Origin: a virus
Taxonomy: Duplodnaviria; Caudoviricetes
Virus record (IMG/VR): IMGVR_UViG_3300035101_000015
Coordinates: 64,001-128,000 of that record
Length of the DNA: 64,000 nt
Reading direction: 5' to 3' (one strand)
The first letter of the stretch is position 1, and each line of letters begins with the position of its first letter. Below are positions 22,873 to 26,297 of the stretch, piece by piece. Below the pieces are notes generated by a model that saw only the letters and a program-made list of their open reading frames with translations, did not search any database and was not told where the DNA came from. The translations under genes were made by a program, and so were the position numbers.

Positions 22873-22901
22873 TGCAAACTAGGGGGTGACGCAGTGATAA
22901 G
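22873..22901 (+). promoter_or_regulatory. Putative promoter TGCAAA-N17-GATAAG driving the Y RNA/rsr operon
   Basis: Shared motif; only 6 nt separate GATAAG from the first Y RNA nucleotide. Confidence 0.65.
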
Positions 22902-22907
22902 AACTTC

Positions 22908-23052
22908 GCAGCAGACCGGAGACTCTGGGTTATCGGTTAGAGCGTTGGGCTCTGCTTCGGCGAGTCCAGAGGTCGCGGGTTCAAGTCCAGCCTCCTTGCC
23001 TCGGCGGGGAGTAGCTCAGTAACAACACCCAGTTTCGTCACTTGTCTGCTGC
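22908..23052 (+). ncRNA. Y RNA enclosing a circularly permuted tRNA-like domain
   Basis: Terminal stem GCAGCAGAC/GTCTGCTGC with GACCG..ACTTGTC Ro helix and GGGTTATC; internal order D-3', anticodon arm (UUCG-capped), T arm, closed acceptor, D-5'. Confidence 0.8.
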
Positions 23053-23089
23053 TCTGCCTTCACCAGGCTGACTACTTGGTGGAGGCGCT

Positions 23090-23151
23090 GAGCGACCGGA
23101 TGGTGTGGGTTATCGCCAACACAGACATCCACATCAATGAACTTGTCGCTC
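23090..23151 (+). ncRNA. Minimal Y RNA
   Basis: GAGCGACCGGATGGTGTGGGTTATC...ATCCACATCAATGAACTTGTCGCTC; preceded by a 12-bp hairpin (23056-23086). Confidence 0.75.
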
Positions 23152-23157
23152 TTTTTA

Positions 23158-23192
23158 CCACTTGCTCCGTACGGAGCCGAAAGGAGTTCATC
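23158..23192 (+). promoter_or_regulatory. Permuted Ro-binding helix overlapping the rsr Shine-Dalgarno sequence
   Basis: CACTTGCTCC-GTAC-GGAGCCGAAAGGAG directly before the GTG at 23193. Confidence 0.6.
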
Positions 23193-24923
23193 GTGGACTA
23201 CGCATCGCAGGTCAGCAAGAAGGTCACCCCGCAGTCTGAGCAGGCGCGGGAGGACCAGGTGAAGAACTCTGCTGGTGGATTCGTCTTCCAGCTCACCTGC
23301 TGGGACCGGCTAGACCGGTTCTTGGTCCTCGGTAACGAGGGTGGCACTTACTACGCGGGAGAGCGTGAGCTCACCAAGCAGAACGCTGCCTGCATCGAGC
23401 AGTGCCTCAACGAGGATGGACCGCGCGCCGTTGCTCGCATCGCCGAGCTCAGTGTGACGAACCGCATCCCCAAGAACGACACGGCCATCTTCGCCCTGGC
23501 ACTCGCCAGTGCGCACAAGGACCAGGCCGTCCGTAAGGCAGCGTTCGCTGCTGTACCTGCAGTGTGCCGCATCGGCACGCACCTCTTCGACTACGCCAGC
23601 GCCTGTGACCACCTGCGTGGATGGGGTGAGGCGATGAAGCGCGCCATCGCCAACTGGTACCTCAGCAAGAAGCCTGAGGATGTCATGTACCAGGTAGCGA
23701 AGTACCGGCAGCGCAATGGCTGGTCCCACAAGGACATGCTCCGCCTGAGTCACGCCGTTCCTACCAACGAACTCGCTCCCATCTTCCGGTGGGTGGTCGA
23801 CTCCGAACTCGGGGAGCGCGTGGTCCAGGGAAGTGAGAAGCGTGGACGCAAACAGCGTCAGTACGCCGGCGTCGGTGAGCTCCCCGAGTACCTCGAGGCG
23901 TTCAATGAGCTGCAGTCATGCAACGAGAAGCGGGTCATCGAGCTCGTGCAGAAGTACGGGTTCACCCGCGAGATGCTGCCCACGCAGCACCTCAACTCGC
24001 TGGACGTCTGGGCGGCTCTACTGCCGAAGATGCCCATCACCGCCACGCTTCGGAACCTGGGCAAGATGACCAACATCGGACTGCTCACTCCTCTCAGCGA
24101 GGGTGCGAAGGTCGTGACGGCTCGCCTGACTGACCCGAACATTCTCAAGCGTGGGCGTGTGCATCCCATCGCGCTGCTCAACGCCCAGGCTATCTACGCC
24201 ATGGGCCACGGCATCCGCCGGATGCAGAACCGTCGGGCGGACGAGAAGGAGCCCCTCACCTGGACTCCCAACCGCGCCATCACCGACGCGCTCGACGAGG
24301 CGTTCTACCTGGCCTTCCAGGGCATCGAGCCCACTGGGAAGAACATCCTACTGGCGCTGGACGTGTCCGGCTCCATGACGGGTGGCAGCATCGCTGGAGT
24401 GCCTGGGCTCAGCCCACGCAAGGCTTCGGCAGCGATGGCCATGGTCACCGCCAAGAGCGAGAAGAACTGGCACATCGTGGCCTTCAGCTCGGGTGGCGGT
24501 CGCCGTGCTGGCGGATGGCAGTCCGGCAACTCCAGCCGTGGCATGTGGGGACACAACTCCGACGGCATCTGCCCCATCGACATCACACCGAAGATGCGGC
24601 TCGACAAGGTCCTCAAGGTCCTCGAGGGCTGGCCCTTCGGTGGGACTGATGTGGCCCTGCCGGTGCTGTACGCCTTGCGGGAGAAGATGCAGGTGGACGC
24701 CTTCGTGACGTACACGGACAACGAGACCTGGGCAGGGGACATCCACCCTCACCAGGCGCTCGAGATGTACCGTCGGGAGACCGGAATCTCCGCCAAGCTG
24801 GTGGCCGTCGGCATGACGGCAACCGACTACTCGGTGGCGGACCCGAATGACCCTGCCTCGATGAATGTGGTCGGATTCGACTCCGCTGCACCCTCCATCA
24901 TGGCGGACTTCATCCGGGGTTGA
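23193..24923 (+). CDS. rsr: Ro60 / TROVE domain RNA-binding protein
   Basis: NSAGGFVF, RFLVLGNEGGTYY, KYRQRNGWSHKDMLRLSH, RNLGKM, HPI, VWA MIDAS DVSGSM, TDNETW, GFDS; AAGGAG RBS before the GTG at 23193. Confidence 0.95.
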   Translation: MDYASQVSKKVTPQSEQAREDQVKNSAGGFVFQLTCWDRLDRFLVLGNEGGTYYAGERELTKQNAACIEQCLNEDGPRAVARIAELSVTNRIPKNDTAIFALALASAHKDQAVRKAAFAAVPAVCRIGTHLFDYASACDHLRGWGEAMKRAIANWYLSKKPEDVMYQVAKYRQRNGWSHKDMLRLSHAVPTNELAPIFRWVVDSELGERVVQGSEKRGRKQRQYAGVGELPEYLEAFNELQSCNEKRVIELVQKYGFTREMLPTQHLNSLDVWAALLPKMPITATLRNLGKMTNIGLLTPLSEGAKVVTARLTDPNILKRGRVHPIALLNAQAIYAMGHGIRRMQNRRADEKEPLTWTPNRAITDALDEAFYLAFQGIEPTGKNILLALDVSGSMTGGSIAGVPGLSPRKASAAMAMVTAKSEKNWHIVAFSSGGGRRAGGWQSGNSSRGMWGHNSDGICPIDITPKMRLDKVLKVLEGWPFGGTDVALPVLYALREKMQVDAFVTYTDNETWAGDIHPHQALEMYRRETGISAKLVAVGMTATDYSVADPNDPASMNVVGFDSAAPSIMADFIRG

Positions 24924-24947
24924 AATCCTGACGATGAACGGGTACAA

Positions 24948-24977
24948 GAAGGGTGGCGGATTCGTCCGCCACCCTTC
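24948..24977 (+). other. Perfect 13-bp UUCG hairpin (processing/stability element)
   Basis: GAAGGGTGGCGGA-TTCG-TCCGCCACCCTTC immediately before a Y RNA. Confidence 0.6.
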
Positions 24978-25044
24978 GGCGACCGGATGTAGTGGGTTCT
25001 CCGAATTTTGGTTTCGACAAGCCCCACTGCAACTACTTGTCGCC
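24978..25044 (+). ncRNA. Minimal Y RNA
   Basis: GGCGACCGGATGTAGTGGGTTCTC...CCCCACTGCAACTACTTGTCGCC. Confidence 0.8.
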
Positions 25045-25050
25045 ATCTAT

Positions 25051-25170
25051 CCAGGGGTAGCTCAGTGGTTAGAGCTCTTTCCTCTCTGCAGCTACTTGTC
25101 TTCCAGACCGAAAGTGGAGAGTTTTCGTCTCACAAACGAGAGGTCGTTGGTTCGAGTCCAACCCCCTGGA
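25051..25170 (+). ncRNA. tRNA-like RNA (anticodon CAC) with Y-RNA module inserted in the anticodon stem
   Basis: CCAGGGG/CCCCTGG acceptor, TAGCTCAGTGGTTAGAGC D arm, GTTGG-TTCGAGT-CCAAC T arm; insert ~25079-25125. Confidence 0.8.
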
Positions 25171-25176
25171 CCTCAT

Positions 25177-25303: not shown

Positions 25304-25308
25304 CTCAT

Positions 25309-25439
25309 GGAACGTGTAGCTCAGCCAGGTAGAGCAGCGGTATCCAGATTCCCTATGCAGAACTTGTCCGAGAGGACCGACGTATAGGGTTATCATTCAG
25401 CACCGCTGGTCACGGGTTCAAATCCCGTCGCGTTCCCCA
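25309..25439 (+). ncRNA. tRNA-like RNA with Y-RNA module in the anticodon loop; encoded CCA
   Basis: GAACGTG/CGCGTTC acceptor, GCGGT/ACCGC anticodon stem, insert 25342-25394, CCA at 25437-25439. Confidence 0.8.
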
Positions 25440-25500
25440 CCTCCAACAGCACTTGCTCTCACGGGATACTCTCGTGCTGAGCCGAAGTTGAAGGGTTATC
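25440..25500 (+). ncRNA. Free-standing permuted Ro-binding module
   Basis: CCTCCAAC-AGCACTTGCTC...GAGCCGAAGTTGAAGGGTTATC. Confidence 0.6.
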
Positions 25501-25510
25501 TACCGAAGCA

Positions 25511-25576
25511 AACAAGGTGATTAGTAGGCGGGATGTCGTATGGTCGACCCAGCGACATCCCGCCGGCCTTGTTTTC
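25511..25576 (+). terminator. Long hairpin between convergent units (possible terminator)
   Basis: GGCGGGATGTCG/CGACATCCCGCC stem, outer AACAAGG/CCTTGTT, followed by TT. Confidence 0.5.
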
Positions 25577-25586
25577 TAGCCCTGTA

Positions 25587-25913
25587 TCAGGCAGCGCGCA
25601 GGGCCAGCGGCAATGAGCTCACCAATCTCTTCGCTCCTCGTCCGAGTAGTGCGATAGCAGTTGGCTCATCGTTCACATCAGGCTCCCTGAAGATGGAGAC
25701 GGGCAGCCCGGCGCAGGTGGCCTTGTAGGCCAGCTCGACCAGCTCCTCCTTGGAAGGCACCTGCAGCAGCACGACGTTGTTGCTGTTTTCATACCAGTCT
25801 ACGTCTTCCCTGGGATGCTCCACTCCAAAGAGCTTGGCAGCATGGACCATCTGAGCACCCTGGAGGCCCGGCGGCTCCAAGTCGTTTCGGACGATGACAT
25901 ACAGCTTGTTCAT
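25587..25913 (-). CDS. Peptidyl-tRNA hydrolase, Pth2-like family
   Basis: KLYVIVRNDL...GLQGAQMVHA...VVLLQV...FREPD...TAIAL...LPL pattern; AGGAG RBS. Confidence 0.8.
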   Translation of the reverse strand: MNKLYVIVRNDLEPPGLQGAQMVHAAKLFGVEHPREDVDWYENSNNVVLLQVPSKEELVELAYKATCAGLPVSIFREPDVNDEPTAIALLGRGAKRLVSSLPLALRAA

Positions 25914-26018
25914 GACTACACTCCTACTGAGAGCGCCGGGCATGGTGCCTGGGGAGAGCCCAGGACGCGACTTGGGTTGTTTGGTTCGTCATGAAACACC
26001 CGGCGCTCGCACTTCTAG

Positions 26019-26093
26019 TGGGCGAGGTGCGGCTCGAACGCACGACCTCTGGATTCTTTAGGCCCAGTGCTCTGCCAACTGAGCTACTCGCCC
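26019..26093 (-). tRNA. tRNA-like gene with 9-nt anticodon loop CCUAAAGAA
   Basis: GGGCGAG/CTCGCCC acceptor, canonical D and T arms, CTGGG/TCCAG anticodon stem; no encoded CCA. Confidence 0.75.
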
Positions 26094-26096
26094 CTG

Positions 26097-26171
26097 CGCG
26101 GGTGGATGGGGTCGAACCACCGACTTCCGGGGGCTTTAGTCCCGGCCCTCTACCAACTGAGGTACACCCGC
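26097..26171 (-). tRNA. tRNA-like gene with 9-nt anticodon loop ACUAAAGCC
   Basis: GCGGGTG/CACCCGC acceptor, CCTC/GAGG D stem, CCGGG/CCCGG anticodon stem, GGTTCGAC T loop. Confidence 0.75.
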
Positions 26172-26269
26172 AGAACGCACGAAAGCCCACGGCGCCGGCG
26201 GCGCGGTGGGCTCTCTGGATACCCGCCGAAGCGGTCTGACTGTCAAAGTCGTGGGTTCACGGCACACCC

Positions 26270-26297
26270 AGGGTAACAATCCCGTACGGGATTGCAA
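26270..26297 (-). promoter_or_regulatory. Sigma70-like promoter TTGCAA-N16-TACCCT with an 18-bp palindrome
   Basis: Perfect palindrome CAATCCCGTACGGGATTG (26277-26294) covers the spacer. Confidence 0.5.

What the first reader, a model, noticed from the sequence alone, without database searches (positions are those of the whole stretch)
22873..26297. Phage RNA/translation-rescue island: Ro60, eight Ro sites, six tRNA-like domains and Pth2, with no RtcB
Seen: two convergent units with their own putative promoters meet at a hairpin near 25511-25576. The plus unit carries Y RNAs, rsr and the tRNA-Y chimeras; the minus unit carries two odd tRNAs and a Pth2-like gene. Known: bacterial rsr-Y RNA loci are often linked to RtcB tRNA repair, some phages encode Ro60, and Pth recycles dropped-off peptidyl-tRNA. 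Inference: a coordinated counter-defence against host tRNA cleavage or translational arrest, in which one protein scaffolds a panel of different RNA adaptors.
Basis: partly seen in the sequence, partly recalled or inferred. Interest (0 to 1): 0.88.

Follow-up and report, generated by a model that had tools for sequence, protein, structure and literature searches.

The report
Phage Ro60 operon with tRNA-shaped Y RNAs
A phage carries a gene for the RNA-surveillance protein Ro60 together with eight docking RNAs, three of them built as complete tRNAs with the Ro60 docking helix in place of the anticodon. The neighbouring hydrolase gene and its two odd tRNAs form a separate module that only happens to sit next door.

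Summary
The window holds:
- Ro60 (TROVE+vWA) at 23193-24923 (+);
- eight Ro-type bulged helices on the + strand: three in the canonical order, five in the reversed ('permuted') strand order;
- three 121-130 nt tRNA-shaped RNAs with the permuted helix in the anticodon position;
- a strong shared hairpin at 25511-25576;
- a PTH2-like gene and two tRNAs with 9-nt anticodon loops on the - strand;
- no RtcB in the 146-kb record.

The tRNA-shaped Ro-site RNAs are a real, covarying family. I found 33 strict members in 20 of 85 viral/phage loci and 43 in 22 of 80 bacterial Ro60 loci. None occurs in related phages that lack Ro60. They are circular permutations of YrlA with true tRNA ends. About half carry the tRNA-His-like G-1:C73 pair, against 2% of ordinary phage tRNAs.

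The tRNA-tRNA-PTH2 unit is also a conserved module, but it assorts independently. Relatives have it without Ro60, and one relative has Ro60 without it. A single coordinated 'island' is therefore not supported.

I found no paper describing the tRNA-order Y RNAs. Earlier agents of this scan had already noted them, and nine-base-loop tRNA/PTH2 modules, on other DNA.

The parts
22776..22906 (+). Terminator-like hairpin of the upstream gene, then a conserved upstream block (TTGTATTT x2 ... TGCAGTGATAAGA); candidate promoter or regulatory region of the rsr operon
   Evidence: Nearly identical in L001. No sigma-70 consensus match. Function is inferred.
22907..23056 (+). Y1: canonical-order Y RNA. Its internal tRNA-like domain is permuted at the D loop and has a closed acceptor hairpin.
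   Evidence: MFE z = -4.0. Matches the nematode sbRNA (Y RNA homologue) model at 25.8 bits, E 0.034, below gathering. The rejoined halves are called a cloverleaf by ARAGORN at a relaxed threshold. The L001 orthologue keeps the Ro stem but has a native-order tRNA-like domain.
23090..23152 (+). Y2: small canonical-order Y RNA
   Evidence: MFE z = -3.1. The L001 orthologue shows compensatory changes in the basal stem (GCGAC/GTCGC versus ACGGC/GCCGT) and matches the sbRNA model at 35 bits.
23159..23190 (+). Permuted Ro-type hairpin in the rsr leader (CACUUGCUCC-GUAC-GGAGCCGAAAGGAG); its 3' side contains the Shine-Dalgarno sequence
   Evidence: Sequence. Conserved in L001 with only the loop changed. 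The same design recurs before Ro60 genes in L002, L004, L118, L142, L128 and L097/98.
23193..24923 (+). rsr: Ro60 orthologue, 576 aa (GTG start)
   Evidence: TROVE 6e-44 and vWA_Ro60 6e-55. The D-x-S-G-S MIDAS motif is invariant in alignment A1. Relatives at 80% identity exist; cellular best hits (~52%) are Polyangiaceae/Sorangium.
24951..24974 (+). Perfect 10-bp GC-rich hairpin with a TTCG loop just after the rsr stop codon
   Evidence: Read. Role unknown (stabiliser, attenuator or processing signal).
24978..25044 (+). Y3: small canonical-order Y RNA (GGGTTCTC variant)
   Evidence: MFE z = -3.8. Its own distal strands pair best with each other, -15.9 kcal/mol.
25050..25172 (+). Chimera A: tRNA-order Y RNA with U-1:A73, a GAGUUUUC variant of the Ro-site motif, and a 5-bp hairpin with a 7-nt loop CUCACAA before the T arm
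   Evidence: CM R1 95.9 bits. 7/7 acceptor pairs and a 3-nt cap.
25177..25305 (+). Chimera B: tRNA-order Y RNA with G-1:C73
   Evidence: CM R1 108.1 bits. 7/7 acceptor pairs and a 6-nt cap.
25309..25439 (+). Chimera C: tRNA-order Y RNA with G-1:C73 and an encoded CCA
   Evidence: Rfam tRNA model 49 bits with a 58-nt insert in the anticodon loop. CM R1 85.4 bits. MFE z = -3.75. Orthologue in L001 at 3250-3381.
25440..25505 (+). D: permuted Ro-type hairpin without a tRNA body, capped by a secondary hairpin
   Evidence: Sequence; regex hit. An equivalent element precedes the terminator in L001.
25511..25576 (.). Strong hairpin between the convergent units; likely terminator
   Evidence: -38.5 kcal/mol, z = -6.4. 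Followed by UUGUUUUCU on the + strand. Lies 10 nt beyond the PTH2 stop codon.
25587..25913 (-). PTH2-like gene, 108 aa (an in-frame ATG also exists at 25943)
   Evidence: PF01981 31.5 bits. The family profile hits Pth2 structures, 2zv3 at E 2.8e-10. All 18 homologues start with MNKLY.
25925..26010 (-). Conserved structured leader between the second odd tRNA and PTH2: a 13-bp closing helix around two hairpins, with an invariant GGGUGUUUCAUGA
   Evidence: RNAalifold on 4 loci gives 24 pairs, 5 with compensatory changes. Function unknown.
26018..26093 (-). Odd tRNA t1 (acceptor GGGCGAG, A73) with 9-nt loop CCUAAAGAA
   Evidence: ARAGORN. Rfam tRNA 55.9 bits. Conserved next to PTH2 in L086, L087 and L090/91.
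26096..26171 (-). Odd tRNA t2 (acceptor GCGGGUG, G73) with 9-nt loop ACUAAAGCC
   Evidence: ARAGORN. Rfam tRNA 52.8 bits. Conserved as for t1.

Best explanation
The plus-strand unit is a mobile phage rsr operon. It encodes one Ro60 protein plus a set of Ro60-docking (Y) RNAs transcribed with it.

Three of these RNAs (A, B, C) are circular permutations of the known tRNA-like Y RNA YrlA. They keep the native tRNA order: an open acceptor stem, a D arm and a T arm. The Ro60-binding bulged helix, closed by a short loop, sits where the anticodon arm would be.

Inferred steps:
- Host RNase P, 3' trimming and the CCA-adding enzyme cut these RNAs out of the operon transcript like tRNAs. [quoted passage not shown]
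- Ro60 binds the helix, and the tRNA body recruits a tRNA-binding partner or protects the RNA. As in RYPER complexes, the particle would redirect host exoribonucleases.
- A Ro-type hairpin over the rsr Shine-Dalgarno sequence probably lets free Ro60 limit its own translation.

The minus-strand unit (two nine-base-loop tRNAs, a structured leader and a divergent PTH2-fold protein) is a separate conserved phage module of unknown target. It lies next to the rsr cassette only because the cassette inserted at this convergent junction.
For: Shown by tool results:
- Ro60 domains are present.
- Eight helices carry the Ro-site features, with site-specific complementary distal strands.
- On 20 chimeras, 96.9% of cells pair and 17 of 21 pairs show double changes, including 7 of 7 acceptor pairs; 0 of 500 shuffles reach this.
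- The strict set holds 33 chimeras in 20 of 85 viral/phage loci and 43 in 22 of 80 bacterial Ro60 loci.
- A single, non-tandem copy in L001 rules out the tandem-YrlA reading there.
- Ro60-less relatives have no chimeras.
- G-1:C73 occurs in 17/33 viral and 15/43 bacterial chimeras, against 4/206 ordinary tRNAs of the same loci.
- The SD-overlapping Ro-type hairpin recurs in distant loci.
- The two modules assort independently.

From the literature:
- YrlA was described as resembling a circularly permuted tRNA (10.1101/312249).
- A phage Ro60 binds phage Yrl RNAs and host PNPase (PMC12135203).
Against:
- Chimera A and the leader hairpin lack the GGGUUAUC element.
- Single-sequence folding does not recover the cloverleaf for A and B (z = -1.9 and +0.6).
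- No promoter was identified.
- The record encodes no CCA-adding enzyme, so maturation must rely on the host.
- The partner of the tRNA body is unknown.
- The window and the P0003 contigs do keep both modules adjacent, so functional synergy is not excluded.
Confidence: 0.7

Rival explanations
1. One reading: the Ro60/Y RNAs, the odd tRNAs and PTH2 act together as one counter-defence island against host tRNA cleavage or translational arrest.
For: - The units are convergent and adjacent in the window and in two contigs carrying the 80%-identical Ro60 P0003.
- A distant phage (L051) has a PTH2-like gene, a tRNA(CUA), Y RNAs and Ro60 on one strand.
- Phage PTH2 and TROVE genes were both discussed as RNA-repair or rescue genes of jumbo phages (PMC7824862).
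Against: - L087-L091 keep MoxR/DUF2201 and tRNA-tRNA-PTH2 in the same convergent layout without Ro60 or chimeras.
- L001 keeps the Ro60 cassette without PTH2 or the tRNAs.
- By tblastn, only 1 of the other 83 viral Ro60 loci shows a PTH2 relative within the flanks.
- The record has no RtcB or Rnl2-type ligase.
Confidence: 0.15
2. A, B and C are not separate tRNA-ended RNAs. The real RNAs would be canonical YrlA units that run from the Ro 5' strand of one repeat, through its T arm and the next repeat's D arm, to the next Ro 3' strand.
For: The Rfam YrlA model gives partial hits exactly across the B/C and A/B junctions: 32.6 and 22.7 bits against a gathering score of 69. Chen et al. warned that tandem tRNAs mimic YrlA (PMC4201824).
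Against: - Each unit's acceptor strands pair 7/7 with each other and not with the neighbour's.
- The Ro strands are joined by 3-6 nt caps, and the distal strands pair best within a unit.
- L001 has a single unit, and many loci have single units.
- Cultured actinophages Cali and Cashline show what true canonical units look like: long terminal stems and closed acceptor hairpins.
Confidence: 0.05
3. A-C are decoding tRNAs that carry an extra arm or an intron. The Ro-like hairpin would be removed or tolerated, and the RNAs would serve translation.
For: - ARAGORN calls them intron-containing tRNAs.
- Chimera A has a 5-bp hairpin with an anticodon-like 7-nt loop, CUCACAA.
- C has an encoded CCA.
Against: - The insert carries the conserved Ro-site motifs and covaries as a helix.
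- The elements occur beside Ro60 and are absent in Ro60-less relatives.
- B, C and many family members have no anticodon loop at all.
- From my own knowledge, no bacterial splicing system is known for such inserts.
Confidence: 0.05
4. The two nine-base-loop tRNAs read a four-base codon that gates translation of the PTH2-like gene, as earlier agents of this scan proposed for other phages.
For: - The same gene order (odd tRNAs next to a PTH2-like gene) and the same 9-nt loops are seen here.
- The loop core UAAAG is invariant on covarying stems.
- A conserved structured leader with an invariant GUG-UUU lies between the tRNAs and the gene.
Against: - In all five loci of this family the gene has its own SD and ATG and an unbroken frame.
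- No conserved CUUU or UUUA, the complements of AAAG and UAAA, is present in the leader or the early gene.
Confidence: 0.1

Closest known systems
YrlA, the tRNA-like bacterial/phage Y RNA (Rfam RF02553; Chen et al. 2014, PMC4201824; structure in Wang et al. 2018, 10.1101/312249)
   Same: Encoded next to rsr. Has a Ro-binding bulged helix with the CCGAA-type 5' strand, conserved T and D arms, and a small hairpin before the T arm. Canonical examples were seen here in phages Cali and Cashline.
   Different: In YrlA the RNA ends lie at the Ro helix and the acceptor stem is a closed hairpin. In A-C the ends lie at a 7-8 bp acceptor stem and the Ro helix is closed by a 3-6 nt cap. The Rfam model does not reach its gathering score (32.6 versus 69 bits).
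RNase P-cleaved, CCA-tailed form of Mycobacterium smegmatis YrlA (PMC4201824)
   Same: The final architecture would be the same: a tRNA-like body with an open acceptor end, joined to a Ro-binding helix.
   Different: The M. smegmatis RNA becomes two base-paired pieces after cleavage. Here the same architecture is encoded as one chain, and half of the family adds a G-1:C73 pair.
Thermus phage phiLo Ro60 with Yrl1/Yrl2 and host PNPase (PMC12135203); D. radiodurans RYPER
   Same: A phage-encoded Ro60 with Y-like RNAs encoded beside the gene. This is the model for how such a particle could redirect a host exoribonuclease.
   Different: The phiLo RNAs are simple canonical stem-bulge-stem RNAs upstream of the gene. 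Here there are eight modules in four layouts, on both sides of the gene.
Salmonella rtcBA-rsr-yrlA RNA repair operon (PMC7790460)
   Same: rsr is linked with Y RNAs in one transcription unit.
   Different: No RtcB, RtcA or RtcR in the record.
Pth2 peptidyl-tRNA hydrolase (PF01981), noted in jumbo phages (PMC7824862)
   Same: Same fold family by Pfam and by profile match to solved Pth2 structures.
   Different: A small phage-only subfamily of 19 proteins. The position aligned to the second Lys of the archaeal GKGK motif is Leu, and the D-A-G-x-T segment is replaced by an invariant E-P-D. Always preceded by two nine-base-loop tRNAs.
Expanded-anticodon-loop (frameshift-suppressor) tRNAs such as sufD and engineered quadruplet decoders (PMC9094744, PMC5009743)
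   Same: An enlarged anticodon loop on an otherwise normal cloverleaf.
   Different: Two different tRNA bodies share one invariant loop core. No matching four-base codon was found, and the phage has almost no UUU codons to serve.

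Membership tests
Ro60 / TROVE proteins | TROVE (HEAT-repeat ring) domain followed by a Ro60-type vWA domain with a MIDAS motif | tested here: met
   PF05731 at 6e-44 and PF25045 at 6e-55. D390, S392, G393 and S394 are invariant in A1.
Y RNA (Ro60-bound ncRNA) | Bulged helix with a conserved 5' strand (published motif GNCGAAN0-1G) paired to a 3' strand ending in CUUG-type sequence, encoded beside rsr | tested here: met
   Eight sites read (G/A)(A/G)(C/G)CCG(A/G)N... 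opposite ACUUG(U/C)(C/U). Basal helix pairs are 91.7% paired across 20 family members. All sites lie within 2.4 kb of rsr.
Y RNA (Ro60-bound ncRNA) | Physical binding to Ro60 | not testable with these tools
   Needs RIP, EMSA or a structure.
YrlA (Rfam RF02553) | Reaches the family's gathering score | tested here: not met
   The best hit is 32.6 bits against a gathering score of 69, and it spans two adjacent units.
YrlA (Rfam RF02553) | Topology: RNA ends at the Ro helix and the acceptor-like stem closed by a loop | tested here: not met
   A-C have an open 7/7-paired acceptor stem and a capped Ro helix. Only Y1 has a closed acceptor hairpin, and its domain is opened at the D loop.
YrlA (Rfam RF02553) | Conserved tRNA-like T and D arms | tested here: met
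   D and T stems are 100% paired, with compensatory changes, in 20 members.
tRNA (RF00005) | Cloverleaf above the gathering score | tested here: met
   C scores 49 bits; the odd tRNAs score 55.9 and 52.8 bits. A scores 25.7 bits, below the threshold.
tRNA (RF00005) | Seven-base anticodon loop with a readable anticodon | tested here: not met
   C has a 58-nt insert. Both odd tRNAs have 9-nt loops, conserved in 8 sequences.
tRNA-His-like acceptor end | G-1 paired with C73 | tested here: met
   Present in B and C and in 17/33 viral and 15/43 bacterial chimeras, against 4/206 ordinary tRNAs, all four of them tRNA-His. Charging by HisRS was not tested.
Pth2 (PF01981) | Pfam gathering score and similarity to solved Pth2 structures | tested here: met
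   31.5 bits against a cut-off of 23. The profile matches 2zv3 at E 2.8e-10.
Pth2 (PF01981) | Catalytic Lys of the GKGK motif and Asp of the D-A-G-x-T motif (residue roles recalled from the S. solfataricus Pth2 literature, not checked here) | tested here: not met
   The aligned positions are Leu and an invariant Glu-Pro-Asp. Hydrolase activity is therefore uncertain.
rsr-rtcB RNA repair operon | RtcB ligase in the locus or genome | tested here: not met
   No PF01139 match in the 145,842-bp record, while the positive controls rang. The record is about 78% complete.
Quadruplet-codon gate of PTH2 (earlier notes of this scan) | PTH2 frame reachable only through a four-base codon complementary to the loop | tested here: not met
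   The gene has its own SD and ATG and an unbroken frame in five loci. No conserved CUUU or UUUA.

The most novel reading that the evidence does not exclude
The tRNA-order Y RNAs would be matured like tRNAs, receive CCA and, through their G-1:C73 acceptor end, be charged by histidyl-tRNA synthetase. Ro60 would then be tethered to an aminoacylated tRNA mimic that can engage EF-Tu, ribosomes or other tRNA-handling machinery.

In parallel, the nine-base-loop tRNAs, the structured leader with its invariant UUU, and the Lys-less PTH2-fold protein would form a separate tRNA-sensing or rescue circuit.
Probability: 0.12. Interest if true: 0.85.

Novelty: new variant of a known kind. Interest (0 to 1): 0.6.

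Why it matters
Ro60 and Y RNAs are conserved from bacteria to humans, yet the role of the tRNA-like module of bacterial Y RNAs is an open question.

A widespread form that keeps true tRNA ends, and in half the cases the histidine-type acceptor signature, makes concrete experiments possible: RNase P processing, CCA addition, HisRS charging and partner pull-downs.

It also explains why Y RNAs were hard to find by the YrlA model in myxobacteria and other groups. In addition, it supports the idea that Y RNAs arose from tRNA genes by rearrangement. Two relatives whose Ro60 proteins are 80% identical differ by a circular permutation of the same Y RNA domain.

For phage biology, the result shows that the rsr cassette and the PTH2/odd-tRNA module are separate mobile units. 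They should be tested separately.

Tried and rejected
- Megablast of the locus against 50,697 phage records found no match.
- The search for related loci with the single Ro60 protein found no relatives. The alignment-based scan worked.
- DNA for the 33.6-kb and 18.9-kb contigs carrying the 80%-identical Ro60 P0003 was not available, so only gene calls could be used.
- Single-sequence MFE folding does not recover the cloverleaf of A and B. Comparative analysis was needed.
- The sigma-70 promoter scan found no site at either proposed promoter.
- Codon supply as the role of the odd tRNAs was rejected. The record has no ordinary tRNAs, and UUU is rare: 107 against 1272 UUC.
- A quadruplet or quintuplet gate of PTH2 has no conserved complementary site, and the gene has its own start.
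- My first regex scan for Ro sites missed B, C and A because its spacer and motif were too strict.
- An automated search for the hairpin before the T arm was badly anchored and under-counted. The pattern (3-bp stem, loop C-U-N-N-N-A-A) is visible by eye in the sequences printed, but it was not quantified.
- Two review papers (PMC10870794, PMC6047535) are not held, so I could not check whether they mention tRNA-order forms.
- The Rnl1 search was uninformative because no control genome rang.

Full report
CONTEXT. The window is bases 64001-128000 of a 145,842-bp IMG/VR virus record, linear and estimated 78% complete. It encodes a terminase, a DNA polymerase, a DnaB-like helicase and a 2153-aa fused multisubunit-RNA-polymerase-like protein, so it is a large phage. 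GC content is 60.8%.

THE PLUS UNIT.
- The ORF at 23193-24923 is a full Ro60 (TROVE 6e-44, vWA_Ro60 6e-55). It has a GTG start 7 nt after an AGGAG.
- Eight helices around it have the Y-RNA Ro-site anatomy: a 5' strand (G/A)(A/G)(C/G)CCG(A/G)...GGGUUAUC and a 3' strand ...ACUUG(U/C)(C/U).
- Three are in the usual order: Y1 22907-23056, Y2 23090-23152 and Y3 24978-25044. Their MFE z-scores are -4.0, -3.1 and -3.8.
- Five are in the reversed order (3' strand, short cap, 5' strand). These lie in the rsr leader (23159-23190), inside three tRNA-like genes (A 25050-25172, B 25177-25305, C 25309-25439) and in a terminal hairpin D (25440-25505).
- All five exact GGGTTATC copies of the 146-kb genome are in this locus.
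- The distal parts of the helices differ from site to site. They pair best with their own partner in 6 of 8 cases, with mean energy -11.3 against -6.6 kcal/mol for cross-pairings.
- Rfam's tRNA model finds C at 49 bits with a 58-nt insert in the anticodon loop.
- The nematode stem-bulge (Y-RNA homologue) model gives sub-threshold hits on Y1, and on the Y2 orthologue of a relative.
- The unit ends at a strong hairpin, 25511-25576 (z = -6.4).

RELATIVES OF THE RO60 CASSETTE. The nearest Ro60 proteins (80% identity) come from metagenomes. The nearest cellular ones (~52%) are from Polyangiaceae and Sorangium. Cultured actinophage Ro60s are ~44% identical.

Contig L001 (80% identity) keeps the following:
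- the upstream block;
- Y1, Y2 and the leader hairpin, in which only the loop is changed;
- one chimera orthologous to C;
- a D-type hairpin and a terminator.

Y2 shows compensatory changes in its basal stem.

Y1 keeps its Ro stem, but the internal tRNA-like domain differs between the two loci. In L001 it is in native tRNA order and joined through its acceptor stem. In the window it is opened at the D loop and its acceptor is closed by a loop. ARAGORN calls the rejoined halves a cloverleaf at a relaxed threshold. Two close relatives thus differ by a circular permutation of one domain.

A 56% relative (L002) has two canonical Y RNAs, one chimera and another canonical Y RNA just after Ro60, inside a 25-tRNA array.

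THE CHIMERAS ARE A FAMILY.
- 'aragorn -i' reports 119-148 nt 'intron tRNAs' beside Ro60 in many of 80 IMG/VR Ro60 loci.
- On an alignment of 20 of them, the acceptor, D, Ro-basal and T helices are 96.9% paired. Of 21 pairs, 17 show double changes, including all 7 acceptor pairs. No shuffle out of 500 reaches this, and slid controls pair at only 33-46%.
- A covariance model built on this alignment was combined with a strict filter: 7/7 acceptor pairs, at least 5/6 Ro-basal pairs and a cap of at most 17 nt. It gives 33 chimeras in 20 of 85 viral/phage loci.
- It gives 43 chimeras in 22 of 80 bacterial Ro60 loci. These include Polyangiaceae, Polyangium, Sorangium, Haliangiales, Kofleriaceae, Chloroflexia, Thermomicrobiales, Longimicrobiaceae, Gemmatimonadaceae and Armatimonadota.
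- Cultured phages Cali and Cashline carry only the canonical YrlA layout.
- Relatives of this phage that lack Ro60 have no chimera.

The parts line up with YrlA in rotated order: acceptor 5' strand, D arm, Ro 3' strand, cap, Ro 5' strand, small hairpin, T arm, acceptor 3' strand. The chimeras are therefore circular permutations of YrlA that restore native tRNA order.

LITERATURE.
- Chen et al. (PMC4201824) found YrlA beside Ro60 in more than 250 bacteria and phages. They found few in delta-proteobacteria and discarded hits that overlapped tandem tRNAs. They also showed that M. smegmatis YrlA is cut by RNase P in its acceptor-like stem and receives CCA.
- Wang et al. (10.1101/312249) described YrlA as resembling a circularly permuted tRNA and proposed an origin from a dimeric tRNA.
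- I found no paper describing the tRNA-order form. Two reviews could not be read.
- Earlier agents of this scan reported the same kind of RNA in a cyanobacterium, crAss-like phages, giant viruses and a marine phage. Within the scan this is therefore a repeat observation on new DNA.

ACCEPTOR END.
- In 17 of 33 viral and 15 of 43 bacterial chimeras, the base before position 1 is G and the discriminator is C (B and C here; A has U-1:A73).
- Among 206 ordinary tRNAs of the same viral loci, G-1:C73 occurs 4 times, always in tRNA-His. Fisher's p is about 1e-13. This is overstated because the sequences are related, but the acceptor sequences themselves are diverse.
- Established knowledge: G-1:C73 shifts bacterial RNase P cleavage by one base and is the main identity mark for HisRS. 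Whether these RNAs are charged is untested.
- Only 2 of 33 and 5 of 43 encode CCA, and the phage record has no CCA-adding enzyme.

LEADER HAIRPIN. The hairpin CACUUGCUCC-GUAC-GGAGCCGAAAGGAG places the Ro-site 5' strand over the rsr Shine-Dalgarno sequence. The same design (YUUGCCC-loop-GGGCCGAAAGGAG) precedes Ro60 genes in L001, L002, L004, an Armatimonadaceae locus, a Chloroflexia locus and two Sorangium loci. Autoregulation by Ro60 is an inference.

THE MINUS UNIT.
- The PTH2-like ORF passes Pfam's threshold, and its family profile matches solved Pth2 structures (2zv3, E 2.8e-10).
- It belongs to a small phage-only subfamily of 19 proteins, all starting with MNKLY.
- The position aligned to the second Lys of the archaeal GKGK motif is Leu, and D-A-G-x-T is replaced by an invariant E-P-D. 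The catalytic role of those archaeal residues is from my memory of the S. solfataricus work.
- In five loci the gene is preceded, in the same order, by the same two tRNA bodies. Both have a nine-base loop N-(C/G)-U-A-A-A-G-(A/C)-N on covarying stems: 99.4% paired, 11 pairs with double changes.
- The record has no ordinary tRNA, and UUU is rare (107 against 1272 UUC), so codon supply is unlikely.
- Between the tRNAs and the gene lies a conserved structured leader: a 13-bp closing helix and two hairpins, with 5 compensatory pairs and an invariant GGGUGUUUCAUGA.
- Earlier agents proposed that such tRNAs read a four-base codon that gates PTH2 in other phages. Here the gene has its own SD and ATG and an unbroken frame, and no conserved CUUU or UUUA exists. 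That reading is not supported for this family, and the target of the loop remains unknown.

LINKAGE TEST.
- L087-L091 share orf689 (62% identity), orf345, PTH2 (67%), DUF2201 and MoxR (34%) with the window, in the same convergent layout. They have no Ro60 and no chimeras.
- L001 shares DUF2201 (81%), Ro60 (79%) and orf286 but has no PTH2 or odd tRNAs.
- The two contigs carrying the 80%-identical Ro60 P0003 have both modules.
- The rsr cassette is therefore an insertion at a convergent junction of a backbone that already carried tRNA-tRNA-PTH2, and the two modules assort independently. It argues against an obligate joint system but does not exclude synergy.

RNA REPAIR GENES. The record has no RtcB and no Rnl2-type ligase. 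A 1236-aa virion-cluster protein combines 2H phosphoesterase, LigD 3'-phosphoesterase, ATP-dependent ligase and pyrophosphatase domains. It could heal and seal nucleic-acid ends.

VERDICT. What is really there is a mobile phage rsr operon with an unusually rich set of Y RNAs in four layouts, next to an independent, conserved nine-base-loop-tRNA/PTH2-like module. The tRNA-order Y RNAs are a new variant of a known kind and are widespread in bacteria and phages. The proposed coordinated counter-defence island is not supported by co-occurrence. All functional steps (processing, Ro60 binding, charging, autoregulation, PTH2 activity) are inferred and need experiments.

Noticed in passing
window 56332-60042 (-): A 1236-aa ORF in the virion gene cluster combines 2H-SAK phosphoesterase, LigD_N 3'-phosphoesterase, ATP-dependent ligase and inorganic-pyrophosphatase domains. 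It looks like an end-healing and sealing polyprotein and might substitute for RtcB-type repair.
   Followed up: partly
window 25925-26010 (-); L086 4902-5000; L087 4902-5000; L090 1394-1498: A conserved structured leader lies between the second odd tRNA and PTH2. It is a three-way junction with a 13-bp closing helix, compensatory changes and an invariant GGGUGUUUCAUGA. In three loci the GUG-UUU frame runs into PTH2 in frame. In two loci it stops 0-2 nt before the ATG.
   Followed up: partly
chimeras in A3/A4/A5 (e.g. window 25125-25145; L028 2945-2960; L092 4940-4955): The small hairpin between the Ro 5' strand and the T arm (the 'V' arm of YrlA) often has a 3-bp stem and a 7-nt loop C-U-N-N-N-A-A, mostly CUNNUAA. 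This is the anticodon-loop consensus, with varied 'anticodons'. It was not quantified properly.
   Followed up: partly
window 26297-26757; L001 3760-4160: Several GC-rich hairpins in a ~450-bp non-coding stretch beyond the odd tRNAs are conserved between the window and L001. They may be further small RNAs or terminators.
   Followed up: no
L002 1-12906: A 56%-identity Ro60 sits inside an array of 25 tRNAs with four Y-type RNAs. A protein with release-factor domains (PCRF, RF-1) lies at 11945-12466.
   Followed up: no
L051 1608-5054: A distant phage has a PTH2-like gene (32% identity), a tRNA with anticodon CUA (amber suppressor type), two Y-type RNAs and Ro60, all on one strand.
   Followed up: no
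window 20152-22775 (+): A MoxR-like AAA_5 ATPase and a DUF2201 (VWA-like / putative metallopeptidase) protein lie directly upstream of the rsr cassette. They belong to the conserved backbone and also occur in relatives without Ro60. The listed 595-aa ORF overlaps the ATPase gene by 350 nt, so its real start is probably later.
   Followed up: partly
window 12191-18652 (-): A 2153-aa ORF matches several phage RNA-polymerase beta/beta' PHROGs. It looks like a fused multisubunit-type phage RNA polymerase. This may explain why no sigma-70 promoters are seen.
   Followed up: no
L092 4855-5544 (Polyangiaceae MAG): Four tandem tRNA-order Y RNAs lie directly downstream of a bacterial Ro60 that is 51% identical to the phage protein. 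This is the same layout as in the window and hints at a myxobacterial host or source.
   Followed up: partly
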